A DNA stretch of 32,971 bases from a virus. Of this stretch, positions 2,967 to 27,861 are shown piece by piece. Position numbers and translations under genes: made by a program. Every line of letters begins with the position of its first letter. Position 1 is the first letter of the stretch. The stretch lies in UHGV virus genome UHGV-0159523; one strand, given 5' to 3'. Under the pieces are notes generated by a model that saw only the letters and a program-made list of their open reading frames with translations, made no database searches and had not been told where the DNA came from.

Positions 2967-3413
2967 ATGAAGAAATTATTAAAATGGATTTTATATATTT
3001 TCATCGGGTTGGTGATTATTGGATATTTTGCAGGCAATAACGATAAAGGCTCTAATTCTTCATACTCATCCGATACGGAAGCTGCGGCACCGCAAAAAGA
3101 AATCTACAACACTACTGCTCGACAGCTGTTTAAAGAGTATGAAGAAAATGAAGTCGCTACCGATGAACAGTTAAAAGGTAAATTAATCGCCGTTAGAGGT
3201 ATCGTACAATCCATTGATAAGGACTTTACTGACTCTATAATTATTAAATTCAGAACTGAAAATGAATTCATGCCAGCAAGAATGGAGATGCAAGACTCTG
3301 AAAAATCAACAGCTGCTGCTCTTAAAAAAGGAGAACAAGTAACTGTTATTTGCGAAAAAATGTCCAGAATTGTCGGCTCCCCATCAGGCCGAAATTGCGT
3401 GTTCGCACAGTAA
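2967..3413 (+). CDS. Moron: N-terminally anchored or secreted small protein with OB-fold-like domain (tRNA_anti-like pattern), 148 aa
   Basis: AT-rich island on the opposite strand inside the tail operon; SD AAGGTGA 4 nt before ATG; N-terminal hydrophobic segment LLKWILYIFIGLVIIGYFA; C-terminal KGKLIAVRGIV...KKGEQVTVICE pattern. Confidence 0.55.
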   Translation: MKKLLKWILYIFIGLVIIGYFAGNNDKGSNSSYSSDTEAAAPQKEIYNTTARQLFKEYEENEVATDEQLKGKLIAVRGIVQSIDKDFTDSIIIKFRTENEFMPARMEMQDSEKSTAAALKKGEQVTVICEKMSRIVGSPSGRNCVFAQ

Positions 3414-3416
3414 GTT

Positions 3417-3447
3417 CAGGGGGGGGCGGCCCTCCCTGTTCGTCTTT
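3417..3447 (+). terminator. GC-rich hairpin between convergent moron and tape-measure genes (likely terminator)
   Basis: cagggggggg-cggc-cctccctg stem (about 9 bp, one G-U) followed by ttcgtcttt; lies between stop codons at 3413 and 3446. Confidence 0.3.
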
Positions 3448-5278
3448 ACCTAAATCTGGTGTACCCAACATCGTGATTAATATCAATGCCACTGGAACGT
3501 GTTTCCGTAACCCGCATACCTGGTGGCATATTCATAAATGAAACCTTGATCTCGCCATCAACTTTTGGCGCGATAGCTTTGTTAATCATAAAGGGATTCG
3601 AGCCTGTGGCATCGGAGGCGTTGTTTGCCTGAGCCGGATCCACCACCGGATAAGGAGTGTATCCCCGTGGCGGTATTCCCGTCCCATAAGCATCATAAGC
3701 ACCCGCGCCCCACTGCGCCGAGTTAATGGCATCGACCGTGTCACCGGAACTGTCGGTAAACCATTCAATAATCGGCTTCAGCTTATCCCACATATCCTGA
3801 AACCACTTAACAACCGGTCCCCAGTTATTGATCACCATCCCCAGCGGCGACCAGGCAAAAACCTTCTTCAGAAGTTCCCAACCTGCCTCAAAATAAGGAC
3901 CAATGGTTTCCCAGAGCTTCTTGAAATAAGGTCCGACAACATCCCAGTTAGTGATAATTAATCCCGCAGCCAGAGCAATCGCCGTCGCAATCATGCCAAT
4001 CGGCGTCATCGACATAATCCTGCTGACAATACTGATGGCACTGCCCACGCCCATCAATCCCAGTTTCAGAATCGCAAGACCGGCAGCAAGCCCGACGACG
4101 CCGCGAATAACCCGGGGATTTTCATCCGCAAACTTCGTGAATTTCTCCCCCAACTCCCCCAGCCATTGTGTGATATTTTTAGCGTCACCAGAAAATGCGC
4201 CGCCAATAGCCGCAAGGCCGTTAGTTGCGGTCCCTGTCATTGCCTCCCACAGGTTGGACAGCGTACCAAGCTGTGCCTGAACACGTTTATTCAGGCTGGC
4301 CTGTTTATTCATCTTCTGCTGGATCTGATCGTAGCCATCCTTTCCTTTATCGATTAGTGCATTGACCACCTGAAGGGTTTCGGCATCATCACCAAATATT
4401 GCCTTAAGTACACCTGTTCGCTTAACGTCGGTCAGTTTTCGCAGCTTTGCCAGTTGCCTGAACATGTTATCAAGACCGCCAAAACTTCCTTTGCCGTCAG
4501 TAAAATCGAGCTGTATCCCGAGTTTCTGGCGGGCCATAACTTTATTAACGTCCCTGATTTTCTTAACGCTTAATCCGGACTGGATAACTTTTCGCAGGGC
4601 ATTACCTGCCGACTCCCCGTTCATCCCCATCTGATCCATCATGACGCTGATGGGGGCAAGGCTCTGTGCAGCCTGAAGACCATCCTTGTTCACCATCTTC
4701 AGAACAGAACTGGTTTTAGTGAAGAAGGACAACATGTTGGTATCGTCAACGCCCAGATAAAACGCCTTCTGGATAGTGTCGAACAGCCCCATCATGTCTT
4801 CTGACGCCGTTCCGGTAGCATCCTGCATCTTTGCAGCAAACTCAGCAGCCGCTTCCGGTGTTTTTTTCAGTTGTACCGCAAGATAAGCTGTCGCTTTACC
4901 CACACCACCCAGAATGTTTTCTGCCGGGATCCCCTGACGCACCAGCATCTGCATCATGTTCTGGAAATCAGCCGTTGTACCAGGTAGCTGGTTACCCAGG
5001 CCAATAGCCAGTTTATTGATGTCCTGAAAGCTCTTTCCAACCTCGCCGTTCGCATCCATCATGGCGACTTTCAGCCCGGTGGCGGCGTTTTCCTGATCGG
5101 CATAAGATTTCAGGGAAAGCGTCAGACCCGCTGCCAGTCCGCCACCAAGCGCCAGCCCACCCTGTGACGCTTCTTCCGCCTGGCGTTTAAATCCCCGGAT
5201 TTTCTTTTGCATTTTCGACAGCGCGGGAGAAAGCCTGTCGACACCGGTGATCAACGCCTTAAGCTCAAATTCAGCCAT
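3446..5278 (-). CDS. Tail tape measure protein, 610 aa
   Basis: Long Ala/Gly/Leu-rich low-complexity protein with hydrophobic central segments, located directly downstream of tail assembly chaperone and frameshift ORFs. Confidence 0.8.
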   Translation of the reverse strand: MAEFELKALITGVDRLSPALSKMQKKIRGFKRQAEEASQGGLALGGGLAAGLTLSLKSYADQENAATGLKVAMMDANGEVGKSFQDINKLAIGLGNQLPGTTADFQNMMQMLVRQGIPAENILGGVGKATAYLAVQLKKTPEAAAEFAAKMQDATGTASEDMMGLFDTIQKAFYLGVDDTNMLSFFTKTSSVLKMVNKDGLQAAQSLAPISVMMDQMGMNGESAGNALRKVIQSGLSVKKIRDVNKVMARQKLGIQLDFTDGKGSFGGLDNMFRQLAKLRKLTDVKRTGVLKAIFGDDAETLQVVNALIDKGKDGYDQIQQKMNKQASLNKRVQAQLGTLSNLWEAMTGTATNGLAAIGGAFSGDAKNITQWLGELGEKFTKFADENPRVIRGVVGLAAGLAILKLGLMGVGSAISIVSRIMSMTPIGMIATAIALAAGLIITNWDVVGPYFKKLWETIGPYFEAGWELLKKVFAWSPLGMVINNWGPVVKWFQDMWDKLKPIIEWFTDSSGDTVDAINSAQWGAGAYDAYGTGIPPRGYTPYPVVDPAQANNASDATGSNPFMINKAIAPKVDGEIKVSFMNMPPGMRVTETRSSGIDINHDVGYTRFR

Positions 5279-5453
5279 GTGTGCGTTTCTCCTGCTCTAT
5301 CCTGTTTGCCTGACTGACCAGTAAGGGAATTTCACTGATCGGCATATTCAGCAATTCGAAAGGATTAATGCGCCAGTAGCTGGCGCAGTCAAAGAAGCGA
5401 TCAGTGAGGTATTCAGCCGTCAGGCCTGGAGGAAAAAACCAGCCACAAGCCAC
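5271..5453 (-). CDS. -1 frame extension of tail assembly chaperone (G-T-like fusion product)
   Basis: ORF in -1 frame relative to 5420..5689, overlapping its 3' end; slippery heptamer T-TTT-TTC in correct register 6 codons before the chaperone stop. Confidence 0.45.
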   Translation of the reverse strand: MACGWFFPPGLTAEYLTDRFFDCASYWRINPFELLNMPISEIPLLVSQANRIEQEKRTHG

Positions 5454-5689
5454 GCCGCTGCATTCAGGTCTGCCGGAGACATCTGGTCGACAGAGCTTTG
5501 CGGCACTTTCGCCAGCCGCACAATGTATTTCGACACCACATGCGCCAGAAGTTTGACTGACTCATCCTGATTCATCTGGTAGGGATACCCCAGCTCGCGG
5601 ACATCCTTCCCGGTGGGCTCATCAAACTCCAGTACGGAGAGTGTCTCGCCATGAGCAGTAATCGGTTTCTTTAACTCAAGCTCTTTCAT
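5420..5689 (-). CDS. Tail assembly chaperone, 89 aa
   Basis: Small ORF between tail tube and tape measure with overlapping -1 ORF, the conserved chaperone position. Confidence 0.55.
   Translation of the reverse strand: MKELELKKPITAHGETLSVLEFDEPTGKDVRELGYPYQMNQDESVKLLAHVVSKYIVRLAKVPQSSVDQMSPADLNAAAWLVAGFFLQA
5432..5438 (-). other. Candidate -1 programmed ribosomal frameshift slippery site (T TTT TTC on the minus strand)
   Basis: Plus-strand gaaaaaa at 5432-5438; on the coding strand codons GGT TTT TTC give X XXY YYZ in register with the chaperone frame, and the -1 frame is open to 5271. Confidence 0.45.
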
Positions 5690-6045
5690 TACTGGTAATC
5701 CCCTTCTTCACCGTGGAACTCAAGATCAACCGTACCTTCTTCGGCATTATGGTTCGCTTCGCCGTGCAGCCAGGCAGACGACAGTACATAGACCTGACCG
5801 TTCGCCAGCTCGGCAGTGATGGTCATCTCATCAGACGAGGTGATTTTGTTCACCGGAAAATTCTTCGGCACCTTGAAAGTCCCTTTGACATAAGGCGCAC
5901 GGTGAGTTTCCTTGCGGTCCACTGAACCGTCCAGGCCGATGATGTCATCATTGACCGTCCTGTTCATGGGCACCTCAATGCCGCCGGTCAGCGATAGCTG
6001 TTGACCGTCAATTTTGAAATAACAGGTTCCCCCGATACGGGCCAT
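5689..6045 (-). CDS. Tail tube protein (Mu gpM-like), 118 aa
   Basis: Size and position immediately after sheath gene; start overlaps sheath stop. Confidence 0.7.
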   Translation of the reverse strand: MARIGGTCYFKIDGQQLSLTGGIEVPMNRTVNDDIIGLDGSVDRKETHRAPYVKGTFKVPKNFPVNKITSSDEMTITAELANGQVYVLSSAWLHGEANHNAEEGTVDLEFHGEEGDYQ

Positions 6046-15357: not shown

Positions 15358-15708
15358 TTACTTCAGCCGTTCACGGGCCGTCTTCGCCTTATGACACGGC
15401 CAGCACAGGCTCTGCAGATTACTGTCGGCATCAGAGCCGCCATGCGCTTTAGGGATGATGTGATCAACGGTTTTCGCTTCACGCACCACACCGGCACGCA
15501 GACATAACTGACATAAACCTTTGTCACGTTTCAGCGCACGCGCGCGGATAACGTCCCACTTCGAACCGTAGCCGCGCTGATGACGGGATTGTCCAGGTTT
15601 GTATTGCTTCCAGCCTTCGCTTTTGTGGCTTTCGCAATAACCTGACGGGTCTGTGGTTATAGAGCGGCAGCCGCGAACACGGCAGGCCTTTGGGATTCGT
15701 GGTGGCAT
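15358..15708 (-). CDS. HNH endonuclease (terminase-associated), 116 aa
   Basis: Cys pairs and DHIIPKAHGG...N...LCWPCH motif; location immediately upstream of TerS as in HK97-like cos phages. Confidence 0.8.
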   Translation of the reverse strand: MPPRIPKACRVRGCRSITTDPSGYCESHKSEGWKQYKPGQSRHQRGYGSKWDVIRARALKRDKGLCQLCLRAGVVREAKTVDHIIPKAHGGSDADSNLQSLCWPCHKAKTARERLK

Positions 15709-15919
15709 GGGTGTTCCAAAATAAATAAACGCTAGCGAATTCTAGTAGCTTGAATTGAGTGTGATGGCCAGTACTGAACTTGAATCCGATTCGGTGTCAG
15801 CTTGGTTTTAGGCGATTACGCACAATTTGTTTTCCCTCATCAGACCAGGTTTTTAACCCATCATTATATATATACCCATCACCAAACTACGGCTTCCAGT
15901 AGGTTACTGTGTTTAGCAT

Positions 15920-15947
15920 GAGTATTTTGTGGTATAAGAAAATACTC
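15920..15947 (+). promoter_or_regulatory. Inverted repeat (9-bp arms gagtatttt / aaaatactc) bracketing an extended -10 (TGgTATAAG): candidate promoter/operator of the moron gene
   Basis: Perfect 9-bp arms separated by gtggtataag; TATAAG at 15933-15938 preceded by TGg; about 30 nt upstream of SD GGGAGA and ATG 15968. Confidence 0.4.
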
Positions 15948-15967
15948 AATTCTTGGGAGAAGAAAAC

Positions 15968-16249
15968 ATGCCAAAAATTCAATTTGATGCAAAAAGTGGT
16001 GAAATGAAGGTTGAGGAAGAAATTTCCAAGATCACCATTGATGATAAAGGCTTAGTTAAAGCTGAAGAGTCTGTAGTTAATGGAAATACCGTTAAGTACT
16101 TTGAGTATGAAAATGGTAGCCATATCACTATTACCCAAAAAAACGGATCCTCTGAGATTTCATCTCATAATATCCAGACAACAATAAGCGCTGACCCTGA
16201 AAAGCCTGGTTTTGTGACTATGACTTACAGAATGGGGTCAGGTAGCTAA
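15968..16249 (+). CDS. Moron: small hydrophilic protein of unknown function, 93 aa
   Basis: AT-rich island on the opposite strand between lysis and packaging genes; SD GGGAGA 7 nt upstream of ATG; own promoter-like and terminator-like elements. Confidence 0.5.
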   Translation: MPKIQFDAKSGEMKVEEEISKITIDDKGLVKAEESVVNGNTVKYFEYENGSHITITQKNGSSEISSHNIQTTISADPEKPGFVTMTYRMGSGS

Positions 16250-16278
16250 CTTTCATTTCAACAAGAGCGGAAAATCAA

Positions 16279-16312
16279 AGCGGCTCATATTGAGCTGCTT
16301 TTCATTATTTTC
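16279..16312 (+). terminator. Rho-independent terminator-like hairpin after moron gene
   Basis: agcggctca-tat-tgagctgct stem (one G-U) followed by tttcattattttct. Confidence 0.4.
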
Positions 16313-16519
16313 TGCATCCACACTTTCGCAATGGCCGCGATCATGCCCTTGAGACCATGTGTCAGGGGTATCTCGTGAATCCCTCATAACTAACCGGAAG
16401 CTGACTGGCTATCAGCCTAGAGCACCGGTGCGCTTCTTCCCGTTAACCCTCACCAGTGCGCTCTCAGCTTTTTACCTGAAACTGGCTACCAGCAACTTTG
16501 AGTATTCGGGGCAGCGTCA

Positions 16520-16825
16520 TTACTGCTGCATTGACACTACTTGCTGCGGTCTTTCCGCTTTACAGCTTAATGGCCAGCTCCTCTCTGCCTCAATTTTACG
16601 AATATCAGCTTTATCACTATTACAGGCAGCCAGAGCCGACAACAGACTCACATTCAAATCCAAGCTTCCACCGTAGGTCAATGGATCAGGAATAACCGGT
16701 TGCGGGGTTTCAGCGGTCAGGTTCGCCGGTAGTGGTATCACCGGAACTGGCACGTAAACTGTCCGCGTACCGGCGCAACCGGTCAGCAGCGGCAGCAGGC
16801 ACAGGGCGTAGAGCACAATCATCAT
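16520..16825 (-). CDS. Rz1-like o-spanin (lipoprotein), overlapped architecture
   Basis: ORF in an alternate frame inside and extending beyond Rz; MM start at 16825/16822, lipobox LLTGC, Pro-rich mature region VPVPVIPLP...PQPVIPDP. Confidence 0.45.
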   Translation of the reverse strand: MMIVLYALCLLPLLTGCAGTRTVYVPVPVIPLPANLTAETPQPVIPDPLTYGGSLDLNVSLLSALAACNSDKADIRKIEAERSWPLSCKAERPQQVVSMQQ

Positions 16826-17102
16826 CCGCAACAGCCACTTTGATATCTTCCTGGGTTCTCTGTGACTCCAGTGCGATCTGCTGTTTTGCATGTTGATTCG
16901 CCTCCTGAATGATGTTCGTTATTGCCATAGTACGCAGAACATTCGCGGTGATAGCCTCAGTAGAATCAGCTCGCTGTTCCGCAGCGTCAGCACGCTTCTG
17001 CTCCTCCAGAAACTTTCCGTGGTAGTGATTCGCTGACCAGACAAGACCACCAGCAATACAAGCAATAAACGCTAAAATGAGCGCCCAATAACTCATCTTC
17101 AT
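16710..17102 (-). CDS. Rz-like i-spanin, 130 aa
   Basis: N-terminal TM (YWALILAFIACIAGGLVW), charged coiled-coil periplasmic domain; start overlaps endolysin stop. Confidence 0.65.
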   Translation of the reverse strand: MKMSYWALILAFIACIAGGLVWSANHYHGKFLEEQKRADAAEQRADSTEAITANVLRTMAITNIIQEANQHAKQQIALESQRTQEDIKVAVADDDCALRPVPAAAADRLRRYADSLRASSGDTTTGEPDR

Positions 17103-17713
17103 ACCAGCAGCGCCGCCCGCGCCTTGTTGTATCGAACCTTACGATCCTCAATACCGTTCAGACCGCCGTTAATGATGCGCGTAACACGATTAATATCGGC
17201 ACCGTAGACCATGCAACCTTTAGAGGTGTAGAACCATGCAGCTGAGCGCGCGGCCTGTAGCTCCTGTTCCAGTTGTTCAGGTGAAGTCACCAGATCTAAC
17301 TTCAGCGCCGCGCCACAGATGCGATAATTATGGAGGCCAGTGATTTGAATTAATCCTCTACCACGATATTTCCAGCCATCACCTGGTGCTTTGTTACCCA
17401 GTCGGTTGCTATACACCAGATTGGCAATAGCATCCTGACGAGCTGCATGTCCGGATGTTCTGCCAAGGGCATCAGCCTGCTGCTGTGTGATCCTCTTTCC
17501 GAACGTCGCCACAAGCGCAGATGGTGTGTAGTTAAAATTTTCAACTACGGCGCTAAACCCCATCGACTCATGGCCTACCTGAGCGATAAACATTGCCTGA
17601 TCCGCTGGTGCTGTAATGCCGAATTCCTTCATCGCCGCATCAATGTGCGGAAACCAGCGCGCAGCCAGCCCGGCGCTAATACCAGCCGCCTTTTGAAATA
17701 ATTGTTGGTTCAT
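17099..17713 (-). CDS. Endolysin, glycoside hydrolase family 19 (chitinase-like), 204 aa
   Basis: GH19 motifs FIAQVGHES...GNKAPGDGWKYRGRGLIQITG...NY; located between holin and spanin genes. Confidence 0.85.
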   Translation of the reverse strand: MNQQLFQKAAGISAGLAARWFPHIDAAMKEFGITAPADQAMFIAQVGHESMGFSAVVENFNYTPSALVATFGKRITQQQADALGRTSGHAARQDAIANLVYSNRLGNKAPGDGWKYRGRGLIQITGLHNYRICGAALKLDLVTSPEQLEQELQAARSAAWFYTSKGCMVYGADINRVTRIINGGLNGIEDRKVRYNKARAALLV

Positions 17714-17994
17714 TAGTGCCTCAGATGATCAACCAGACGTGCAACGTTGCCTCTGACAGCCACCAGCACGGAAAGAAAAATAGTGTTCGCCACGATAATG
17801 GGCCATGAGGAATGGGGATAAATCCCACAGAGATAGGCCAACGGAACAGCACTGTATGTAACAGTAATCAGCCAGGCTAAACGTGAAACCCACGGACGAT
17901 GCCGCGAATCACCACGACGATAAAACATCAGAGTAATAACAACACAAGCACATAACAGCGCATTAATAGTTGCTGTCGGGTCATTTAGCTCCAC
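17713..17994 (-). CDS. Small membrane protein in lysis cassette (second holin/antiholin candidate), 93 aa
   Basis: Two to three hydrophobic helices; between holin and endolysin. Confidence 0.45.
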   Translation of the reverse strand: MELNDPTATINALLCACVVITLMFYRRGDSRHRPWVSRLAWLITVTYSAVPLAYLCGIYPHSSWPIIVANTIFLSVLVAVRGNVARLVDHLRH

Positions 17995-18367
17995 CTGAAC
18001 CTCCCCGGCGCGTTATGAGCGCCACCAGCGAGCCGATATCCTGATTATTCAGGAACGTCAGGATTTTAACGGCTAAAGCAGAGACGATTACGGCACCAAT
18101 AGCATCCAGAGGTTTATCACTGTATCCGGTCAAGTTTGCCAGCTTGGAGCCAACCAATCCAGAGCAAAGGATCCCAGCAATATATGACACGATAAAATAT
18201 GCCAGTCGGCGCGATGCACTCAGATCTGCTGCTGTTGCTATATAGAATACAGCCCCTGCAAATGCGCCAAAAACAACGCCGTAATCAGTTCCGGTCAGCA
18301 GTCCATAAATACTAGCGCCCGTTAGGGCTCCACCAGCTAACCCTGTGCCGGAAATCGGATCGGACAT
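17981..18367 (-). CDS. Holin-like membrane protein, 128 aa from ATG 18367
   Basis: Strong SD AGAGGTG 4 nt upstream of ATG at 18365-18367; Gly/Ala-rich TM helices; first gene of lysis cassette. The ORF track's upstream start at 18433 lacks an SD. Confidence 0.55.
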   Translation of the reverse strand: MSDPISGTGLAGGALTGASIYGLLTGTDYGVVFGAFAGAVFYIATAADLSASRRLAYFIVSYIAGILCSGLVGSKLANLTGYSDKPLDAIGAVIVSALAVKILTFLNNQDIGSLVALITRRGGSGGAK

Positions 18368-18415
18368 TAGCCACCTCTTATTGCAGTGAGTCCTCTCAGA
18401 AATAGAAATGAGAGG

Positions 18416-18442
18416 AATAAAAAAGGCCACCATTTGGCAGCC
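18416..18442 (-). terminator. Rho-independent terminator at end of AT-rich cassette (before holin)
   Basis: Minus strand ggctgcc-aaat-ggtggcc hairpin (with G-U pairs) followed by TTTTTTATT. Confidence 0.4.
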
Positions 18443-18475
18443 ATAGAATTGATGTAATTATAACTAATTCATTAA

Positions 18476-19282
18476 CTATTTCTTAATGATGCTATTTAAC
18501 ATTTCTAATGCAAAAAGCAACATGGAGCTAATAAAATACAATATAACCGCACTGGCAATCGCTCCAATTATAGCCTGAACACTCCAGTGAAAGTAATTTT
18601 TACCATTAATAACAAACTTAACACTAGGAAACAAAAAGTCGATAAGCTTAATTATTAATGGAATAGCAAAGCTCCATAAGTTCGAAAACAAAATAAAGAT
18701 ACAAATAAATGATAAAGCAAATGCACCATCGATTGATAGTTTTGGCGCCAGTTTTGAGGCTGTCCATAAGCTAAGCAAAAAGCCAACTGTCACACCTGAA
18801 ATCTGGATACTTAACATAGTCCAAGCTGTTCTAAAAAATCTAAATTTATTTTTGCACTTGTTAAGTAAATCCTGAATCGTAATCCATAACGAGTCAACCC
18901 ACTCATTATCTTCCGATGCTACAATCATTGTGCTGCTATTTGAATTCCTCTCATCAATTCGTAGCTCCATCCAAGATCCATTCATCCTGTTAGACTGTCG
19001 ACTTTGATAAGTTTCAATAGTAAAAATTATTTGATCAATCCTAGTGGCCTGTCTAAAGTATTTCACAAGCTCACCGATAGAATCAACTTTATACCCCTTA
19101 CCATCGAACAAAATAAAAAAAACACATTGAGCACAAACTTCCCTACTTTCCTTTTGAGCTTGCTCATTCATTTTAACGCAGCGTTCGACAATTGCCGTGC
19201 TTAAGCTAATCAAGCTATCTTCATTTATAGAAACACCTGAAATATTCTTGCTTCTGTAAAAATATGACACTTTCGATTCCAC
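18476..19282 (-). CDS. Moron: membrane protein with about 155-aa N-terminal soluble domain and three C-terminal TM helices, 268 aa (GTG start)
   Basis: Long ORF in strongly AT-rich DNA; hydrophobic segments near residues 160-185, 195-227, 240-265; no in-frame upstream ATG before a stop, so GTG at 19282. Confidence 0.55.
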   Translation of the reverse strand: MESKVSYFYRSKNISGVSINEDSLISLSTAIVERCVKMNEQAQKESREVCAQCVFFILFDGKGYKVDSIGELVKYFRQATRIDQIIFTIETYQSRQSNRMNGSWMELRIDERNSNSSTMIVASEDNEWVDSLWITIQDLLNKCKNKFRFFRTAWTMLSIQISGVTVGFLLSLWTASKLAPKLSIDGAFALSFICIFILFSNLWSFAIPLIIKLIDFLFPSVKFVINGKNYFHWSVQAIIGAIASAVILYFISSMLLFALEMLNSIIKK

Positions 19283-19447
19283 TCCGCACCAGTCTCGATT
19301 TGGCGCAGGTTAACATAACCACTTCATTGGTAGAAGAAAAGAACTCTTCTTGTCAGAAAGCTACTGTGATATCCCTAAACCTGCAGATGATACAGAACAA
19401 AATTTAAGCATCAATTGTAGGCGATTTTAAATTCACTTTACAGTTTA

Positions 19448-19465
19448 GGCTGCCAATTGGCAGCC
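19448..19465. repeat. Perfect 18-bp palindrome ggctgccaattggcagcc between the two cassette genes
   Basis: Exact reverse-complement symmetry read directly; 15 bp downstream of the 89-aa gene stop; its right half recurs in the cassette terminator at 18425-18442. Confidence 0.6.
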
Positions 19466-19479
19466 GATTGAAGCAGAAA

Positions 19480-19749
19480 TCAATGAGTGCTCATCGATGA
19501 ATTTTTTTCAGCGCCAATCTCACTCAAAAAAGCAAAACCTTTTGACGTTATCTCATTAGCAATCAATCCACCTTCGGCAGATTTGCTTCGTATAACATCG
19601 ATAAAACCTATATCAGCAAGATCTGAAATAGCAAAATTAACCTCTTTTGCTGAGAGATGAGGTAATGATGTAGCCTGAATTCTAGAATCCTTTGGCTGCA
19701 ATTCATTCACTCGACGTAGTATTTCAAGATGGATAGAGGTCAGTTTCAT
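19480..19749 (-). CDS. Moron: small protein with winged-helix-like C-terminus, 89 aa (candidate regulator)
   Basis: Perfect SD AGGAGA 5 nt before ATG; own extended -10 promoter; pattern DLADIGFIDVIRSKSAEGGLIANEITSKGFAFL resembles wHTH wings. Confidence 0.5.
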   Translation of the reverse strand: MKLTSIHLEILRRVNELQPKDSRIQATSLPHLSAKEVNFAISDLADIGFIDVIRSKSAEGGLIANEITSKGFAFLSEIGAEKNSSMSTH

Positions 19750-19785
19750 AATGTTCTCCTGTCTTTAATGTTGTTTTACAGAAAA

Positions 19786-19795
19786 CATTATAACA
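19786..19795 (-). promoter_or_regulatory. Extended -10 promoter element (TGtTATAAT) for the AT-rich cassette
   Basis: Minus-strand TGTTATAATG about 35 nt upstream of the 89-aa gene ATG, just downstream of the tR'-like terminator. Confidence 0.4.
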
Positions 19796-19830
19796 CATTG
19801 ATTTTGATGTAGATTGAATAGAAAAAAACC

Positions 19831-19856
19831 ATAAAAAAACCTCGCAATAGCGAGGT
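19831..19856 (-). terminator. tR'-like rho-independent terminator in the late leader downstream of Q
   Basis: Minus strand acctcgc-tatt-gcgaggt perfect 7-bp stem followed by TTTTTTAT and a second T-run. Confidence 0.5.
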
Positions 19857-19963
19857 CGTAAAAATTGTTCAACGATAGATACACAAGCCCCATCGTTGAG
19901 AAAATCTTATCCATATTTTTTGAGAAACACAAGTATTATGTCGTTATCTTCGGCGAAAATCGC

Positions 19964-20716
19964 TTATCTCGTCACCCTTCTCAATTGTGCTTCAGCGTAA
20001 GCTTCCTCCTGCCAGCACTTTGTAACCAGTTTATCAATGACATCTGCATATCCTTTGTACCACTGATAATCCGTCAGGTCTGGTACCAGCTTCTGGACAT
20101 GAAGCCGCGCCAGTGTGGTTGGTAAACGGCTAAACCGGTTTCCATTGCAACGCCCACAAATCTTATAAACAGGCGTGCCATGAAGCCGGGTCCTTTTTTC
20201 ATCCAGGACAATACCTTTACCCTTACACCCTCTGCACGCGGTGCTGACTTCTCCCTTACCATGGCAATGCTGACATAGTTCCTTCACCCACTCTTCCTTG
20301 ATAACAGATTCCCCGCTTCTGGAGTGTTTCACCACTTCGCGCAATACATTATGAAATCCAGTACCAGCACAATGCTCACAGCGAGCCTTACTTGCCGCAG
20401 ACCTGGAATAATCAGCAAAGGCAAAATTCACAAGGTAAGGGATGATCTGTAACCGGGTTTCTTCACTCAATTTGTTCAATGTCGGGTTATCCAGTGCCAT
20501 CGCGTAATTGAACAGACCTTCAATCGCAAACTGAGGATCCTGAACACCAACTTTTGCCAGGAATAAGGCAAACCCAAGCGGTGCTTTCGACTGCACCATC
20601 CCCTGCGCAGCCATCACATCCGTAATCGTTAAACCACCTGAGCCTGTCGCCGGTGCGTCATCGCTCAATTTTGGAGATTTTGGGGAGTAATATTTTGGTA
20701 AGGCTTCAAGGTTCAT
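19964..20716 (-). CDS. Late-gene antiterminator Q-like protein, 250 aa from ATG 20716
   Basis: Cys-rich zinc-binding motifs (CEHCAGTG, CQHCHGKG, CRGCKGKG, CGRCNG); position immediately upstream of late leader/terminator and lysis genes; SD GGAGA before ATG 20714-20716. Confidence 0.7.
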   Translation of the reverse strand: MNLEALPKYYSPKSPKLSDDAPATGSGGLTITDVMAAQGMVQSKAPLGFALFLAKVGVQDPQFAIEGLFNYAMALDNPTLNKLSEETRLQIIPYLVNFAFADYSRSAASKARCEHCAGTGFHNVLREVVKHSRSGESVIKEEWVKELCQHCHGKGEVSTACRGCKGKGIVLDEKRTRLHGTPVYKICGRCNGNRFSRLPTTLARLHVQKLVPDLTDYQWYKGYADVIDKLVTKCWQEEAYAEAQLRRVTR

Positions 20717-20729
20717 GCTCGTTCTCCAC

Positions 20730-21701
20730 TTACGCCAGCACGCCAATTGCCTGCGCACGATCGATAAAACGAAATATCAGCTCCAGCTGGGAGCCATACT
20801 TCTCTTCAAATGCCACGGTATCCGCATGCAGCTCGTCGTGATGCTTTCTGCACAAAGGCAACACAAAGAGGTCATGCGCTTTTGTACCCATTCCACCCTG
20901 ACCGTGACCTATCAGGTGGTGGGGATCATCAGCAGGCTTTCCACAACATGCACACGGCTGTGTCTTAACCCAGCGGCGACGTTTTGGGCGTAACATAAAA
21001 GACTCCGGCGACTCCGGATCCACTTTCAGCGCCAGCACCTTTTTCGCCTTATCATGGATGATGCTGGTGGCAGGAATCGAAGGCACAAGGTCACTTTCCC
21101 GGGTGACAGACGGCACAACAGGCTTCGGTAATCTCAGTGCCTTACGGGCTGCACTTTCCGGTAAGGCATCCGCCAGGTCATTACGAATCAGCCACCAGCA
21201 CAGTTCCGGCATTGTCACAACGTGACTGTCATCAAAACCGAGATCCCGACGCACAACAGACAACACCCAGCGGGCACAGTTATCCGTTGCCATTGATTCC
21301 AGCCGTTCCGTGAACTGATCGCGCAGCTGGTTATCGCAGTGCCAGCACAGACGGATCGCGCCCGGCGCGTGTCGCATTGTGGTCATGTTCTCGCTGTGCC
21401 AGTCGGAATGAGGCCACTGACAGCCCTTTTCACGAAGTAACCAGCTTTCAAGACATTCCACGCCACCAGCACGACGGATCACTGCCTCATTGCAGAACAC
21501 GGCCCGAACGGCAGGATCATCCGCCAGCGGTTGTGATGCCGCGGGAACGGCACCACTGGCGAAAGATGAATAACGTTCCGGCTCAGGCTCCAGCAGGACA
21601 CGCCCCTGCATAAACAGGGGCATCAGCTCTGAACCGGGTCTGAACAATACGATCCCCATACGCGGGGCTATTTCAGTGGTCAGTAGTGCTCTCACGGTCA
21701 C
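20730..21701 (-). CDS. DUF968-family phage protein, 323 aa
   Basis: C-terminal Cys/His-rich segment CACCGKPADDPHHLIGHGQGG...CRKHHDELH; common lambdoid early-region gene. Confidence 0.55.
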   Translation of the reverse strand: MTVRALLTTEIAPRMGIVLFRPGSELMPLFMQGRVLLEPEPERYSSFASGAVPAASQPLADDPAVRAVFCNEAVIRRAGGVECLESWLLREKGCQWPHSDWHSENMTTMRHAPGAIRLCWHCDNQLRDQFTERLESMATDNCARWVLSVVRRDLGFDDSHVVTMPELCWWLIRNDLADALPESAARKALRLPKPVVPSVTRESDLVPSIPATSIIHDKAKKVLALKVDPESPESFMLRPKRRRWVKTQPCACCGKPADDPHHLIGHGQGGMGTKAHDLFVLPLCRKHHDELHADTVAFEEKYGSQLELIFRFIDRAQAIGVLA

Positions 21702-23738: not shown

Positions 23739-24676
23739 CCCCTGAATCCTGCCGGGATCTGGCTGTAGTCCACGTTGCCGTAACTGGCTTTGAAGTACGG
23801 GTCTTCACGTTTTTCTGTGTGCGTGCTGACGGACGGCGATAAGCGCAGGGAAAGCTCATCCCATTTTTCCCGCAACTTCGACGGGCTGAGCACGTTACGG
23901 CACCAGAACGGATCGCGGCTGACGCGGCTGTACATCTCGCAGATTTGTTTGTGAGTACGACCATCCTGCACACACATCAGGCGAATTTCGTTTGCCCATG
24001 CTGTCCAGTTCGGTTCTTTGGGACGAACCACCTCGCCGTCACATTCGGCGGCCTGCTCGTACAGGGCAATGATTTTTTTCCAGAGCCACTGTGCGCAGGT
24101 CAAATCATCCTGCGTTCCCCACTGGCGCTTTTTAGGGCTGAATACAACCGCATCAGGATGGCGAGTTAAAAAATCCTGTTCAGCCGTCTGCGTGTCCGGT
24201 TGCGAAGCGTCCGGACGAGAAGGTTTTTTATCTGACGGATCATGTTTTGATTTTACTGACGGATCCCCGCCAGATTCTGACGGGTGAAAACCCGCTTTTT
24301 TGCCAGATTTCGACGCATCAAATTTTGACGGGTCAGATTTTGATGCGTCAGATTTTGACGGGTCAGAATCTGACAGTTGAGAAAATGCCGCTGCCTGAAG
24401 CTTCGCAACGTTAAGCTGATAAACATTCGACGCATTGCGGTTACCCTGGCGACGCGCCTTACGCGTTAACCAGCCTTCTGCTTCCAGCCGTGCGATAGCC
24501 GTTCTGACGGTACTCATCCCCGCGCCAATCTGGCGGGCAATGGTTTCAATTGATGGCCAGCACACACCTTCGTCATTACTGAAATCAGCCAAGCGGGCCA
24601 TAATTGCCACGCTGGATAATTTCATGCCTGACGCTGCGCAACCATCCCATACATAGCCGGTTAATTTAGTGCTCAT
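23735..24676 (-). CDS. Replication initiator, O-like (N-terminal wHTH, repeat linker, C-terminal domain), 313 aa
   Basis: N-terminal HTH (SIETIARQIGAGMSTVRTAIARLEAEGWL); internal peptide repeats SKSDASKSDPSKFDASKSG encoded by a DNA iteron array; SD AGAGG before ATG. Confidence 0.65.
   Translation of the reverse strand: MSTKLTGYVWDGCAASGMKLSSVAIMARLADFSNDEGVCWPSIETIARQIGAGMSTVRTAIARLEAEGWLTRKARRQGNRNASNVYQLNVAKLQAAAFSQLSDSDPSKSDASKSDPSKFDASKSGKKAGFHPSESGGDPSVKSKHDPSDKKPSRPDASQPDTQTAEQDFLTRHPDAVVFSPKKRQWGTQDDLTCAQWLWKKIIALYEQAAECDGEVVRPKEPNWTAWANEIRLMCVQDGRTHKQICEMYSRVSRDPFWCRNVLSPSKLREKWDELSLRLSPSVSTHTEKREDPYFKASYGNVDYSQIPAGFRG
24226..24379. repeat. Iteron array (putative origin of replication) inside the O-like gene
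   Basis: About eight copies of a 15-bp repeat (consensus agattttgacgggtc); four perfectly tandem between 24320 and 24379. Confidence 0.6.
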
Positions 24677-24685
24677 GACCGACCT

Positions 24686-25024
24686 CTATTTCCCTGAATT
24701 TACGACGAAACTGTTCGAGCGGGCTGAAGCACTCATGCTCATAGCCTTCACGGAGGTAGATAACCCGTTGTGTTTCCGGCTCCCAACGAATGACTCTGAC
24801 GGGCACTCCGTAGTGATCTTTGAACCAGCGGTTAACTTGTCGCAAAGGACTGTCTCCTTCTGCCGGTTGAAATCACCCACAGCCCACTCTGCAAAGCTGT
24901 GGGTTACAATTTCCCTGTCACCTGGTACATTTACTGCATAGCAATACTCCACCTTCGCTTTTCCACCCGGTACAGGAAGCGCAATCAGTTGCGAGCGACG
25001 GTAGTGTGTTGTTAAACTGTTCAT
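24686..25024 (-). CDS. Hypothetical early protein, 112 aa, translationally coupled to the upstream gene
   Basis: ATGA stop/start overlap at 25021-25024; the SD of the downstream O-like gene lies in its 3' end. Confidence 0.4.
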
Positions 25025-25572
25025 GCGTTAGTTTCTCCACAGTCACGACACGCCACGGCGCCCGGAGCTGCACACTCGCGGGCGTCACTCTTTTCTGGAG
25101 CGCAAAAGATTTTGTAGACCAGTGCTGCATGCTCCTGGAGCTTCGAAATTGACAGATACAACTCATCATTAATTGCTGTCTGCTCGTGTGGCTCCACTAC
25201 CCCATCTTCGATTGCCGAACGAATCTGCTTTGAGTAACTCCCGATCTGTTCGATGACTTCCAGCAGGCGCTGGTTTATATCGGCGTTCTCTACTTCCTCA
25301 ATTTCAGGAAGCGATACGAACACCCCACCAGCAGACTGTGCGACAGCATCCGCAATGTAGTGAGTGCCAGCTGCGCGCTGTAAAACCATTGCCCATCCCA
25401 GCGGGAAAATCTGATCGCCATCGGCACGAAGGCGGTTAAATAATGCGTTCTCTGTTACATCCAGCCAGTCAGCAGCTTCAGCGTAACCACCCGGCAACGC
25501 CGCGATAGTTTTTCTGACAGCTTTCACGTACCACTCAGGCTGTTTTTCTACTTTCCAGTGATGCTTACCCAC
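25021..25572 (-). CDS. Early regulatory protein candidate (CII-position), about 183 aa from GTG 25572; alternative ATG starts at 25650/25683
   Basis: GTG at 25570-25572 has strong SD GAGGAG 6 nt upstream and avoids overlap with Cro-like stop at 25601. Confidence 0.4.
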
Positions 25573-25600
25573 GGTTAACTCCTCGTTTCTGTGGTTACGT

Positions 25601-25864
25601 TTACGCAACTGAACCGCTAACTTTTGAATAGCACTCTGGTAATCCATCATTTGGATTTGGATAAATATCAGGACGCAGCTCATGGGGGGTTACGGACCAG
25701 TTCCCCAGCTCACAAAGTTGTAAAACTCGTTCCGACGGGACTTGATTGTTAATTACCCAATTAGCGACAGATTGAGTAGATTTAAAACCAAAGCGACGAG
25801 CTACTTCAGATAAAGACTTTCCCGCAGCCTTTACTGCTTTCTCGGTGTAGTTTTGAGATGACAT
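25601..25864 (-). CDS. Cro-like HTH repressor, 87 aa
   Basis: HTH KSLSEVARRFGFKSTQSVANWV; SD AGGAG; divergent from CI across a short operator region. Confidence 0.65.
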   Translation of the reverse strand: MSSQNYTEKAVKAAGKSLSEVARRFGFKSTQSVANWVINNQVPSERVLQLCELGNWSVTPHELRPDIYPNPNDGLPECYSKVSGSVA

Positions 25865-25896
25865 ATCTTTCTCCTCTGAAATCCAGAGGGGATAAT

Positions 25897-25934
25897 GCTA
25901 CTTAAAGTAGCGAATTGCAACTACTTAAAATAGA
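25897..25934. promoter_or_regulatory. OR-like operators: two copies of a 15-bp palindrome (gctacttaaagtagc and actacttaaaataga)
   Basis: First copy is a perfect odd-length palindrome; second is a near copy 23 bp away centre to centre; both lie in the 71-bp gap between divergent cro-like and cI starts. Confidence 0.55.
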
Positions 25935-25935
25935 A

Positions 25936-26676
25936 ATGACGAGCGTATGTGATGTGAGTAATCTTCTACCTATGGTAGAAGAACAGAAGTATCCAGATTT
26001 CGCCAAGAGACTAAACGAGTTAATGACAAACAAGGGAATTTCTGTCACCCAACTCAAAAGTCTTGTTGGCGTTACATATGAAATGGCGCGGCGATACACA
26101 ATCGGCGCAGCGAAGCCTCGTGCCTCTGTCATGAATAAACTTGCGTTGGCTCTGGGGGTATCGGCTTCATATTTAGAATATGGTGTTGGCGAGAGAGAAG
26201 GATGTAAGGAAATGGCAAGCATCCCCAATCCAACAAAACCCGACGTATACAGGATAGAAGTTTTAGATCTTAGCGTTAGCGCAGGACCTGGAACCTATAT
26301 GCTTTCAGACTATGTTGATGTGCTCTACGCCATTGAGTTCACAACAGAACATGCCCGTTCTCTTTTCGGTAACCGTTCTCAGGATGATATTAAGGTTATG
26401 ACTGTAAATGGCGATAGTATGTCCCCTACTCTCGTTTCCGGAGATCGACTGTTTGTCGACATTTCTGTTCGTCACTTCCAGACTGATGGAATTTACTCTT
26501 TCGTTTACGGTAAGACTTTTCATGTTAAACGTCTTCAAATGCAAGGTGACAAGCTAGCCGTTCTTTCGGATAACCCTGCCTATGAGAAATGGTACATCGA
26601 TGAAAAATCGCAGGATCAGCTTTATGTAATGGGCAAGGCGTTGATTCATGAGTCAATAAAATACAATCGGTTATAG
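25936..26676 (+). CDS. CI-like prophage repressor with C-terminal S24 (LexA-like) peptidase domain
   Basis: N-terminal HTH (FAKRLNELMTNKGISVTQLKSLVGVTYEMARRY); C-terminal VNGDSMSPTL and FHVKRL Ser/Lys dyad; ATG at 25936 may be leaderless, TTG at 25915 is the track start. Confidence 0.85.
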   Translation: MTSVCDVSNLLPMVEEQKYPDFAKRLNELMTNKGISVTQLKSLVGVTYEMARRYTIGAAKPRASVMNKLALALGVSASYLEYGVGEREGCKEMASIPNPTKPDVYRIEVLDLSVSAGPGTYMLSDYVDVLYAIEFTTEHARSLFGNRSQDDIKVMTVNGDSMSPTLVSGDRLFVDISVRHFQTDGIYSFVYGKTFHVKRLQMQGDKLAVLSDNPAYEKWYIDEKSQDQLYVMGKALIHESIKYNRL

Positions 26677-26691
26677 TTCTAAGGGCATATA

Positions 26692-27039
26692 ATGGCTAGT
26701 GAGCAGGGATTCGAAAAGATTAACATGGATATGTTGGTCTCTTATTTCTCAGAAAAGAATATATATCTAAAATGTACACTATGTGGACACGACAGATTGA
26801 CTGTGCCTCAAGTCAGCGCGAATGTGGGCATGCCATGTACTATGAAACTTGGTAGTTATGTGAATGTTTTTACTGAAAAAAGCATTTATTCTGATACTGC
26901 TAACCAGTATTACTTTTCACTAATATGCAACAATTGTGGAAATGAAATTCATATAAATGCGTTTTCAGTTTTGAACTGGGTAAATGAAAAGTTCCCAGCA
27001 AAAACGGAAGATGAAAAAAATGCCGACGCCGCAAAATAA
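26692..27039 (+). CDS. Small protein with two CxxC pairs (zinc-ribbon-like), 115 aa
   Basis: CTLCGH and CNNCGN about 50 residues apart; AT-rich; immediately downstream of cI on the same strand (rexA position). Confidence 0.5.
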   Translation: MASEQGFEKINMDMLVSYFSEKNIYLKCTLCGHDRLTVPQVSANVGMPCTMKLGSYVNVFTEKSIYSDTANQYYFSLICNNCGNEIHINAFSVLNWVNEKFPAKTEDEKNADAAK

Positions 27040-27391
27040 TGTAGTACCATTTAATAGTGAACTTCCCACAATTAGAAGACACGGTGGAGATGGCGGAGGT
27101 GATGACATGCTTGAAGCCCGAGTCGCTAAGTTAGAAGCGAATGTTGAGGATATAAAAACAAATCTCGCAGAGATGAGAGCTGACATTCGTGATTTGCGAA
27201 ACGCTCTCTCCGACACCCGACGCGATGTCGCTGTTATCCTTCAAAAACAAATAGATATAGATGAAAAGTTGTCAAAAAAACCTAGCCTAAGTGAAGTCAA
27301 CAGCGCTATTTCATCAGCCGTAAATAAACAGATCGCATGGACTGTTGCAACAGGCTTGGCGATTTTAGGTCTCGCCAAATTTATGTTTTGA
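27011..27391 (+). CDS. Coiled-coil protein with single C-terminal TM anchor (XhlA-like architecture); start 27011 or 27020
   Basis: Heptad-like charged region EARVAKLEANVEDIKTNLAEMRADIRDLRNAL followed by IAWTVATGLAILGLAKFMF at the extreme C-terminus; overlaps upstream gene end. Confidence 0.5.
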   Translation: MKKMPTPQNNVVPFNSELPTIRRHGGDGGGDDMLEARVAKLEANVEDIKTNLAEMRADIRDLRNALSDTRRDVAVILQKQIDIDEKLSKKPSLSEVNSAISSAVNKQIAWTVATGLAILGLAKFMF

Positions 27392-27733: not shown

Positions 27734-27861
27734 AATATCATTTTACCGACAACGAACAGGCAGGACGCCCACGAAGTAGCCGCCTGGGGCATATGAAGTC
27801 CAGGATGATTCGTTGAGTCATGTTGTGCCACTAGGCACTCATGTTAAAGCAGGTGTATGAA

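What the first reader, a model, noticed from the sequence alone, without database searches (positions are those of the whole stretch)
5271..5689. Canonical -1 frameshift site in the tail assembly chaperone
Seen in sequence: the chaperone frame reads GGT TTT TTC six codons before its stop, giving the slippery heptamer T-TTT-TTC in the required register. The -1 frame is then open for 57 more codons into the start of the tape-measure gene. Established knowledge: G/GT-type frameshifting is conserved in long-tailed phages. This supports the tail-module annotation and shows the tail operon is probably intact at this point.
Basis: partly seen in the sequence, partly recalled or inferred. Interest (0 to 1): 0.4.

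Follow-up and report, generated by a model that had tools for sequence, protein, structure and literature searches.

The report
Tail chaperone −1 frameshift site
This is the ordinary programmed −1 ribosomal frameshift by which an SfV-like E. coli/Shigella prophage makes a short and a long form of its tail assembly chaperone; it is real and strongly conserved, but it is a textbook phage feature that the database records simply fail to annotate.

Summary
The genes lie on the minus strand. An 89-codon Phage_TAC_7 chaperone gene (5689-5420) sits between the tail tube gene and the tape-measure gene. It reads GGT TTT TTC CTC CAG GCC TGA, so T_TTT_TTC (5438-5432) is in the X_XXY_YYZ register. After a −1 slip, 53 codons (not 57) stay open to a TGA at 5273-5271, which overlaps the tape-measure ATG (ATGGCTGA). 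The predicted fusion is 139 aa.

The window is about 99% identical to phage SfV. All 26 more diverged relatives examined (40-93% protein identity, from Aeromonas to Burkholderia phage) keep T_TTT_TTY at the homologous codon. In each, the −1 extension is 50-55 codons and ends at the tape-measure start.

- The heptamer's Gly and first Phe codons are the only 2 of 24 invariant-residue codons with no synonymous variation.
- The extension evolves as protein in the −1 frame only (pN/pS 0.40 versus 1.2-1.3).
- Half of the loci have no start codon for it.
- No conserved stimulatory RNA structure or upstream Shine-Dalgarno sequence was found.

The closest analogue is P2 E/E+E′ (GGT TTT TTG, 91/142 aa). 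This is a known kind of site and of low interest. The practical gain is better annotation.

The parts
5689..6045 (-). Tail tube gene (118 aa); its TAA stop overlaps the chaperone ATG (TAATG)
   Evidence: Pfam Tail_tube PF10618, E=3.3e-33. Annotated as tail tube protein in SfV and in E. coli RefSeq. The overlap is seen.
5420..5689 (-). Chaperone gene 'G' in the 0 frame (89 aa plus TGA); counterpart of P2 gpE and SfV orf13
   Evidence: Pfam Phage_TAC_7 PF10109, E=2.9e-16, residues 4-86 on profile positions 2-78 of 79. Translation.
5432..5438 (-). Slippery heptamer T_TTT_TTC (0 frame GGT TTT TTC; codons Gly84-Phe85-Phe86)
   Evidence: GGTTTTTTY is invariant in 22 of 22 loci. Its Gly and first Phe codons are the only two codon-invariant columns among 24 invariant-residue columns.
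5271..5432 (-). 'T' extension in the −1 frame: 53 codons (PPGLTAEYLTDRFFDCASYWRINPFELLNMPISEIPLLVSQANRIEQEKRTHG) plus TGA
   Evidence: pN/pS is 0.40 in this frame against 1.23 and 1.32 in the other two frames. Matches phrog_32181 'unknown function', E=4e-40. No start codon is available in 11 of 22 loci.
5271..5689 (-). Predicted G-T fusion product, 139 aa (residues 1-86 from the 0 frame, 87-139 from the −1 frame)
   Evidence: tblastn of the fusion finds two pieces in two frames covering 98-100% of it in 23 phage records, down to 40% identity.
3446..5278 (-). Tape-measure gene (610 aa); its ATG overlaps the T stop (ATGGCTGA), and its AGGAG Shine-Dalgarno sequence lies inside the last T codons
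   Evidence: Pfam PhageMin_Tail, E=6.2e-27. The T stop lies within −29 to +6 nt of the tape-measure start in 22 of 22 loci. Sequence context.
5369..5387 (-). GC-rich hairpin TGCGCCAG-CTA-CTGGCGCA inside the T ORF, 44 nt 3′ of the heptamer. Probably not part of the frameshift signal; listed because it was tested.
   Evidence: 86% of cells are paired across 18 relatives, but only 2 of 8 pairs show any double change. RNAalifold finds no consensus structure.

Best explanation
This is a programmed −1 ribosomal frameshift of the phage G/GT (P2 E/E+E′) type. Most ribosomes translate the 89-aa chaperone and stop at TGA 5422-5420. A minority, with tRNA-Phe on UUU in the P site and on UUC in the A site, slip back one base on U_UUU_UUC and re-pair on UUU UUU. 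They then read 53 more codons in the −1 frame and terminate on the TGA that overlaps the tape-measure start, giving a 139-aa G-T fusion. Shown here: the signal, its register, its conservation at the nucleotide level, and the coding nature of the extension, which can be reached only by frameshifting. Inferred by analogy with lambda gpG/gpGT and P2 gpE/gpE+E′: the shared G domain coats the 610-aa tape-measure protein, the T domain recruits the 118-aa tube protein, the two forms are needed in a fixed ratio for tail assembly, and neither stays in the virion. The efficiency is unknown.
For: - Anatomy.
- Gene identity and position (sheath-tube-TAC_7-tape measure). The window is 99.1% identical to SfV over this region.
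- Conservation: GGTTTTTTY sits in the same register in all 21 genome loci at 48-99% protein identity. Each has a −1 extension of 50-55 codons ending at the tape-measure start. T_TTT_TTT or T_TTT_TTC sits at the homologous codon in SfIV, ST64B, phiP27, Burkholderia phage BgVeeders33 and Pantoea phage AH07, with extensions of 52-54 codons. The first T is kept even where that codon changes amino acid (GGT, AAT, CGT).
- Nucleotide-level selection: of 24 invariant-residue degenerate codons in G across 19 sequences, 22 vary synonymously. Only Gly (GGT ×19) and Phe (TTT ×19) of the heptamer do not. The preceding Ala uses all four codons.
- The extension is coding in the −1 frame only: pN/pS is 0.40 against 1.23 and 1.32.
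- There is no ATG, GTG or TTG in that frame upstream of the conserved part in 11 of 22 loci.
- Fusion length is constant at 136-141 aa.
- P2's experimentally established site is GGT TTT TTG at the same Phage_TAC_7 profile position, with products of 91 and 142 aa and an E′ stop next to the T-gene start (PMC3091744).
- U_UU.U_UU.C is among the efficient −1 motifs in E. coli (PMC4066793).
Against: - No protein evidence is available here.
- In reporter assays the bare UUUUUUC heptamer gives only 0.12% frameshifting without a stimulator (7.6% with the IS3 pseudoknot; PMC4066793 supplement). No conserved downstream structure or upstream Shine-Dalgarno-like element was found, so the level reached in the native context is unexplained.
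- Four of 80 near-identical viral contigs carry GGG TTT TTC or GGG TTT TTT and so lack the first T. Either those elements are decaying or the strict heptamer is not essential.
- A run of six T leaves transcriptional slippage formally possible.
Confidence: 0.9

Rival explanations
1. The G-T fusion is made by transcriptional slippage. RNA polymerase adds one extra U in the U6 run, so a fraction of mRNAs carry G and T in one frame and ribosomes translate them normally.
For: The site is a homopolymer run: T6 here, T7 in the ST64B/phiP27/SfIV group. The first T is conserved whatever the amino acid, which lengthens the run and would also favour slippage. PMC4066793 notes that U7 and A7 runs are avoided in genes, partly because of transcriptional slippage.
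Against: From my own knowledge, not tested here: efficient slippage by E. coli RNA polymerase needs runs of about 8-9 or more A/T. The run always sits in the X_XXY_YYZ register in all 27 loci and never in another phase. The homologous P2 site (TTTTTTG) is documented as a translational frameshift (record annotation; PMC3091744).
Confidence: 0.05
2. The −1-frame ORF (5453-5271) is a separate small gene translated from its own GTG start, as annotated in phage vB_EcoM-689R6 and some E. coli genomes.
For: the ORF listing returns a 60-aa GTG-initiated ORF at 5271-5453. It is annotated as a stand-alone hypothetical protein in ON470584 and in NZ_CP075462. PHROGs holds it as its own family, phrog_32181.
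Against: 11 of 22 loci have no ATG, GTG or TTG between the upstream −1-frame stop and the conserved part of T. Where a candidate start exists, it is the nTG formed across the conserved Trp codon of G, with no Shine-Dalgarno sequence in front. The heptamer's synonymous sites are frozen, which independent initiation would not require.
Confidence: 0.02
3. The heptamer is a by-product of a conserved Gly-Phe-Phe peptide, and the −1 ORF is a non-functional relic, so no biologically used recoding occurs.
For: In-frame X_XXY_YYZ heptamers are common, 31 in the window's ORFs. G-F-F is conserved at the protein level. Four of 80 close relatives have lost the first T.
Against: Amino-acid conservation does not explain the exclusive use of GGT and TTT when every other conserved residue varies synonymously. 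The −1 ORF is under purifying selection. It keeps its length and its end point at the tape-measure start down to 40% identity.
Confidence: 0.02

Closest known systems
Phage P2 gpE / gpE+E′ programmed −1 frameshift (Christie et al. 2002; Xu, Hendrix & Duda 2004, as cited in PMC3091744)
   Same: Both are contractile-tail phages with the gene order tube, chaperone, tape measure. Both chaperones are Pfam Phage_TAC_7, and the slip falls at the same profile position, 78 of 79. The nucleotide motif is nearly identical: GGT TTT TTG in P2 and GGT TTT TTC here. Product sizes are 91/142 aa against 89/139 aa. In both, the −1 stop lies next to or overlaps the tape-measure start. No downstream hairpin is found in either (PMC3091744).
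   Different: Pairwise sequence similarity is not significant (BLASTP E=1.9). The profile comparison is weak but collinear over 118 columns (hhalign E=7e-4). The extension here does not match Pfam Phage_P2_GpE in any of the 19 family members. Z is C rather than G. The rest of the tail module is Mu-like (498-aa sheath, 118-aa tube, DNA-circulation and gp44/P-like hub), not P2-like.
Phage lambda gpG / gpGT (Levin, Hendrix & Casjens 1993; Xu et al. 2013, 2014, as summarised in PMC5009743)
   Same: [quoted passage not shown] The inferred functions are G binding the tape-measure protein and T binding the tube protein.
   Different: Lambda has a non-contractile tail, an unrelated sequence family, and the heptamer G_GGA_AAG (tRNA-Lys in the A site) instead of U_UUU_UUC (tRNA-Phe). 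The lambda ratio of about 30:1 is measured; the ratio here is unknown.
Phage Mu gp41 tail assembly chaperone
   Same: The surrounding tail genes here are Mu-like (SfV record notes; Pfam). Mu gp41 lies at the same position, between M (tube) and gp42 (tape measure), and weakly matches Phage_TAC_7 (E=2.5e-5).
   Different: Mu gp41 is 144 aa, belongs mainly to Pfam Gp41_Mu, has no T_TTT_TTY site, and is reported to use a −2 frameshift (PMC5009743). The SfV-type module therefore has a Mu-like tail with a P2-like recoding site.

Membership tests
G/GT-type tail assembly chaperone frameshift of long-tailed phages (Xu, Hendrix & Duda 2004) | Two overlapping ORFs located between the major tail (tube) gene and the tape-measure gene | tested here: met
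   Tube 6045-5689, G 5689-5420, T frame 5432-5271, tape measure 5278-3446.
G/GT-type tail assembly chaperone frameshift of long-tailed phages (Xu, Hendrix & Duda 2004) | [quoted passage not shown] | tested here: met
   T_TTT_TTC at 5438-5432, three codons before the G stop.
G/GT-type tail assembly chaperone frameshift of long-tailed phages (Xu, Hendrix & Duda 2004) | The downstream ORF has no initiation signal of its own and is conserved as coding sequence | tested here: met
   No start codon in 11 of 22 loci. pN/pS is 0.40 in the −1 frame against about 1.2-1.3 in the other frames.
G/GT-type tail assembly chaperone frameshift of long-tailed phages (Xu, Hendrix & Duda 2004) | The site and the two-frame arrangement are conserved among relatives despite sequence divergence | tested here: met
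   26 of 26 diverged loci. Codon-level invariance. 76 of 80 near-identical contigs.
G/GT-type tail assembly chaperone frameshift of long-tailed phages (Xu, Hendrix & Duda 2004) | Both the short and the frameshifted product are made, in a fixed ratio, and both are required for tail assembly | not testable with these tools
   This needs proteomics, a reporter assay and genetics. No published test on SfV-type phages was found in the held library.
Pfam PF10109 Phage_TAC_7 (P2 E, Mu gp41 family) | HMM match above the gathering score (25 bits) | tested here: met
   59.7 bits, E=2.9e-16, residues 4-86. All 19 family members match.
Pfam PF06528 Phage_P2_GpE (the E′ extension of P2) | HMM match of the −1 extension above the gathering score (23 bits) | tested here: not met
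   No hit at E≤10 for the extension, and none at E≤1 in any of 19 fusions. P2 E+E′ itself scores 76 bits. hhalign of the T profile against P2 E′ gives only E=0.039 over 31 columns, so homology is suggested but not shown.
Canonical −1 PRF cassette (heptamer plus spacer plus stimulatory element, as in IS3/IS911, dnaX and coronaviruses) | X_XXY_YYZ heptamer that allows both tRNAs to re-pair | tested here: met
   U_UUU_UUC. tRNA-Phe re-pairs on UUU UUU. The motif is listed among efficient E. coli motifs.
Canonical −1 PRF cassette (heptamer plus spacer plus stimulatory element, as in IS3/IS911, dnaX and coronaviruses) | A conserved hairpin or pseudoknot 5-9 nt downstream, or a Shine-Dalgarno-like element upstream | tested here: not met
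   The first 50 nt downstream fold no better than shuffles (z=+0.71). The RNAalifold consensus is empty (−0.62 kcal/mol). The only strong hairpin is 44 nt away with almost no covariation. The upstream 30 nt are variable and hold no conserved Shine-Dalgarno-like element.

The most novel reading that the evidence does not exclude
The SfV/ST64B/P2-type U_UUU_UUY sites may reach a biologically useful frameshift level without any RNA stimulator. The bare heptamer gives only about 0.1% in reporters, so an unrecognised enhancer could be at work. Candidates are the invariant GG-U6-Y-CU context, the hydrophobic nascent peptide ...W-L-V-A-G-F-F in the exit tunnel, or the conserved GC hairpin 44 nt downstream acting at long range. 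Alternatively, a ratio of roughly 1:1000 may be enough for contractile tails.
Probability: 0.07. Interest if true: 0.4.

Novelty: already known. Interest (0 to 1): 0.12.

Why it matters
The main value is for annotation.

- The same chaperone region occurs, at ≥80% coverage of the query, in 895 of 5,426 complete E. coli genomes.
- None of the records inspected joins the two frames. This covers SfV, SfI, SfII, SfIV, ST64B, phiP27, AH07, BgVeeders33 and the PGAP-annotated E. coli genomes.
- The extension is either left as an unannotated 140-nt 'gap' or called a separate hypothetical protein. It also sits in PHROGs as an 'unknown function' family, phrog_32181.
- Recognising the site gives that family a name (the T domain of a G-T chaperone). 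It closes an apparent intergenic gap and supports the view that the tail module of this prophage is intact.

It does not change what is known about frameshifting or tail assembly.

Tried and rejected
- **Structure of the fusion.** The single-sequence AlphaFold2 model was too poor to use (mean pLDDT 45). No fold search was therefore run.
- **Solved structures.** The G profile found nothing in the PDB at E≤1.
- **Downstream stimulator.** The weak hairpin GGCC-UGAC-GGCU, 5 nt after the heptamer, is no better than shuffles and is not conserved. A 100-nt fold scores z=−3.75, but its stems start 25 and 44 nt downstream. The outer stem is only 62% paired in relatives. The inner stem is conserved mainly because it encodes the invariant C-A-S-Y-W-R motif. 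I rejected it as a canonical stimulator.
- **Upstream Shine-Dalgarno-like stimulator.** None is conserved.
- **NCBIfam.** No model matches G, T or the fusion.
- **Literature.** No open-access paper in the library describes the SfV-type site. The SfV genome paper (PMC134923) is not held, and the PRFect supplement does not list SfV. I could not check whether Xu et al. 2004 listed SfV.
- **Apparent single-frame 'fused' proteins.** P0001-P0004 carry several local frame disruptions. I read them as assembly or sequencing indels, not as natural fusions.
Full report
**What is in the sequence**

All genes of this part of the window are on the minus strand. Reading that strand, the order is:
- a 498-aa tail sheath gene (7541-6045)
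- a 118-aa tail tube gene (6045-5689)
- an 89-codon ORF (5689-5420)
- a 610-aa tape-measure gene (5278-3446)

The 89-codon ORF ends ...GCT GGT TTT TTC CTC CAG GCC TGA. The heptamer T_TTT_TTC (5438-5432) is therefore in the X_XXY_YYZ register, with three sense codons between it and the stop. After a tandem −1 slip the ribosome would read CCT CCA GGC CTG ACG... for 53 codons. It would stop at TGA 5273-5271, which overlaps the tape-measure start as ATGGCTGA.

The predicted products are 89 aa (G) and 139 aa (G-T). Its '57 more codons' counts four −1-frame codons that overlap the site; the true extension is 53.

**Identity of the genes**

Pfam assigns the 89-aa protein to Phage_TAC_7, 'tail assembly chaperone proteins E, or 41 or 14' (E=2.9e-16). 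The neighbours match Tail_tube, Phage_sheath, PhageMin_Tail, DNA_circ_N and Mu GpP/gp44-like hub domains.

The region is 99.1% identical in DNA to Shigella phage SfV and 98-99% identical to SfI, SfII and two E. coli phages. The window as a whole is an SfV-like prophage next to tRNA-Thr and proA.

None of the inspected records joins the two frames:
- SfV annotates only orf13 and leaves a 141-nt gap before the tape-measure gene.
- vB_EcoM-689R6 calls the −1 ORF a separate hypothetical protein.
- PGAP-annotated E. coli genomes list only a 'phage tail assembly protein'.

**Is it more than chance?**

In-frame X_XXY_YYZ heptamers are common: 31 in the 10,056 codons of the window's 47 long ORFs. The heptamer alone therefore proves nothing.

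Only this one lies within ten codons of a gene's end, opens a −1 frame of 50 or more codons, and ends at the next gene's start. My rough estimate is about 0.1 such coincidence per window. That makes the single sequence suggestive only, so I turned to relatives.

**Conservation**

A scan of one genome per species gave 21 loci at 48-99% protein identity, from Shigella, Edwardsiella, Buttiauxella, Citrobacter, Erwinia and Pantoea to Aeromonas.
- All 21 have GGTTTTTTY in the same register.
- Each has a −1 extension of 50-55 codons.
- The extension's stop lies within −29 to +6 nt of the tape-measure start, usually as the same ATGGCTGA overlap.

tblastn of the 139-aa fusion against phage genomes found it as two pieces in two frames. 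These covered 98-100% of the query in 23 records, down to 40% identity. In SfIV, ST64B and phiP27 (T_TTT_TTT), and in Burkholderia phage BgVeeders33 and Pantoea phage AH07 (T_TTT_TTC), the heptamer sits at the homologous codon. The extensions there are 52-54 codons and end at the tape-measure start. In these phages the codon that supplies the first T encodes Asn, Arg or Gly (AAT, CGT, GGT), yet its third base is always T.

Three quantitative tests point the same way:
- **Frozen codons.** Among 24 alignment columns of G with an invariant residue and a degenerate codon, 22 vary synonymously across 19 sequences. The only two that use a single codon throughout are Gly GGT and Phe TTT of the heptamer. 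The next Phe is TTC in 18 sequences and TTT in 1.
- **Coding frame.** The extension beyond any overlap with G has pN/pS 0.40 in the −1 frame and 1.23 and 1.32 in the other two. Third-position entropy is the highest of the three positions.
- **No start codon.** In 11 of 22 loci there is no ATG, GTG or TTG in the −1 frame between the upstream stop and the conserved part of T. Where one exists, it is the nTG formed across the conserved Trp codon of G, with no Shine-Dalgarno sequence before it.

The extension is thus a real coding region that can be reached only from the G frame. Fusion length is held at 136-141 aa across the whole family.

**Population-level exceptions**

Among 80 near-identical IMG/VR contigs, 76 keep TTTTTTC. 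Three read GGG TTT TTC and one reads GGG TTT TTT CTC. All four have an intact T ORF.

These variants keep the A-site U_UUY tetramer, which Sharma et al. rank second among frameshift-prone tetramers in E. coli (PMC4066793). They may still shift at a reduced level, or they may belong to decaying prophages. I could not tell which.

**Stimulatory elements**

- The first 50 nt after the heptamer fold no better than shuffles (z=+0.71).
- A 100-nt window does fold well (z=−3.75), but its stems begin 25 and 44 nt after the heptamer. That is too far for the usual 5-9 nt spacer.
- Across 18 relatives RNAalifold finds no consensus structure (−0.62 kcal/mol).
- The GC hairpin at 5387-5369 is 86% paired, but only 2 of its 8 pairs show any double change. 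It encodes the invariant C-A-S-Y-W-R motif.
- The 30 nt upstream vary freely and hold no conserved Shine-Dalgarno-like element.

So there is no canonical stimulator, as reported for P2 and its relatives (PMC3091744).

This leaves one loose end. In Sharma et al.'s reporter, bare UUUUUUC gives 0.12% frameshifting, 0.89% with the IS911 stimulator and 7.6% with the IS3 pseudoknot. P2's UUUUUUG gives 0.12% bare. The efficiency in the native context is unknown.

**Mechanism**

Shown:
- the signal and its register
- selection on the signal at the nucleotide level
- the coding nature of the extension, and the fact that it can be reached only by a frame change

Inferred from established work on lambda gpG/gpGT and P2 gpE/gpE+E′ (summarised in PMC5009743, and PMC3091744):
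- tRNA-Phe in the P and A sites slips from UUU UUC to UUU UUU
- the common G domain binds the tape-measure protein
- the T domain recruits the tube protein
- both forms are needed in a set ratio
- neither is in the finished particle

Rivals:
- Transcriptional slippage on the U6 run (about 5%). The run is short, and its fixed register suggests a ribosomal event.
- Independent initiation of T (about 2%). Half the loci have no start codon.
- A chance or relic site (about 2%). argue against it.

**Comparison with known systems**

The closest is P2 E/E+E′.
- P2 reads GTC GGT TTT TTG TCG..., giving products of 91 and 142 aa, and the E′ stop lies beside the T-gene start.
- Both chaperones match Phage_TAC_7 up to profile position 78 of 79, so the slip falls at the same place in the domain.
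- Pairwise similarity is insignificant (E=1.9).
- A profile of 19 fusions aligns collinearly with P2 E+E′ over 118 columns at E=7e-4.
- The extension alone aligns weakly with E′ (E=0.039). It matches Pfam Phage_P2_GpE in none of 19 members.

I therefore do not file the T part under that family. Its only family match is phrog_32181, 'unknown function'.

The rest of the tail module is Mu-like. Mu's own gp41 is a 144-aa protein of another Pfam family without this heptamer, and it is reported to use a −2 shift (PMC5009743). The SfV-type module therefore combines a Mu-like tail with a P2-like recoding site.

**Verdict**

The feature is a standard, already known kind of phage recoding site, carried here by a very common prophage: 895 of 5,426 complete E. 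coli genomes hold the chaperone region.

The practical gains are in annotation:
- joining the two frames
- naming phrog_32181
- closing the apparent gap before the tape-measure gene

Interest is low. I could not verify whether SfV itself was listed in Xu et al. 2004, because that paper and the SfV genome paper are not in the held library.

Noticed in passing
window 2967-3413 (+): A 148-aa ORF on the strand opposite to the tail operon sits between the tape-measure gene and the DNA-circulation gene. It matches Pfam tRNA_anti-like (PF12869, E=2.9e-19) and has a hydrophobic N-terminus. SfV has only a 45-nt gap here. The E. coli genome that matches the finding region 100% has unrelated sequence and a different minus-strand ORF in this slot. 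It looks like a variable 'moron' insertion site inside the tail operon.
   Followed up: partly
L031, L092, L098 (GGG TTT TTC) and L061 (GGG TTT TTT CTC), about locus positions 2749-2760; homologous to window 5440-5429: Four of 80 near-identical viral contigs have lost the first T of the heptamer through a synonymous Gly change, while the T ORF stays intact. Either G_UUU_UUY still shifts through the A-site U_UUY tetramer, or these are decaying prophages.
   Followed up: partly
window 5369-5387 (−), inner hairpin; outer stem 5398-5406 with 5333-5341: A GC-rich 8-bp hairpin, TGCGCCAG-CTA-CTGGCGCA, lies 44 nt 3′ of the slippery site inside the T ORF, enclosed by a 9-bp outer stem. The 100-nt fold scores z=−3.75. 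The hairpin is kept in most relatives but with almost no covariation, and it coincides with the invariant C-A-S-Y-W-R peptide. Its function, if any, is unknown.
   Followed up: yes
L003/L109 (SfIV), L106 (ST64B), L107 (phiP27) compared with window 5271-5700: There is a mosaic break at the tube/chaperone junction. SfIV and vB_EcoM-720R4 share about 97% DNA identity with the window through the sheath and tube genes, but carry a chaperone only about 41-44% identical (107-111 aa; the 0 frame runs 20 or more codons past the slip site) and a different tape-measure gene. The chaperone, T extension and tape-measure gene seem to be exchanged as one unit.
   Followed up: partly
L059, from about locus position 2850 onward: In one IMG/VR contig the T frame diverges after ...FELLN and stays open for 508 codons. 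This points to a rearrangement or insertion inside the T extension in that element.
   Followed up: no
window about 15700-20730 and 23800-28300: The lysis, late-regulation and early regions differ from the otherwise closest E. coli prophage. The window has a Phage_holin_8 holin (17981-18433 −), a Glyco_hydro_19-like endolysin (17099-17713 −), a Q-type antiterminator with a DnaJ-type zinc finger (19964-20758 −), and a 268-aa ORF with no Pfam match (18476-19282 −). This is ordinary lambdoid mosaicism and was not examined further.
   Followed up: no
proteins P0001-P0004, P0006, P0007: A few metagenome or Logan assemblies predict single-ORF 'fusions' of G and T (107-139 aa). Their sequences show several local frame disruptions around the T run. 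They are most likely homopolymer sequencing or assembly errors rather than natural in-frame fusions.
   Followed up: partly
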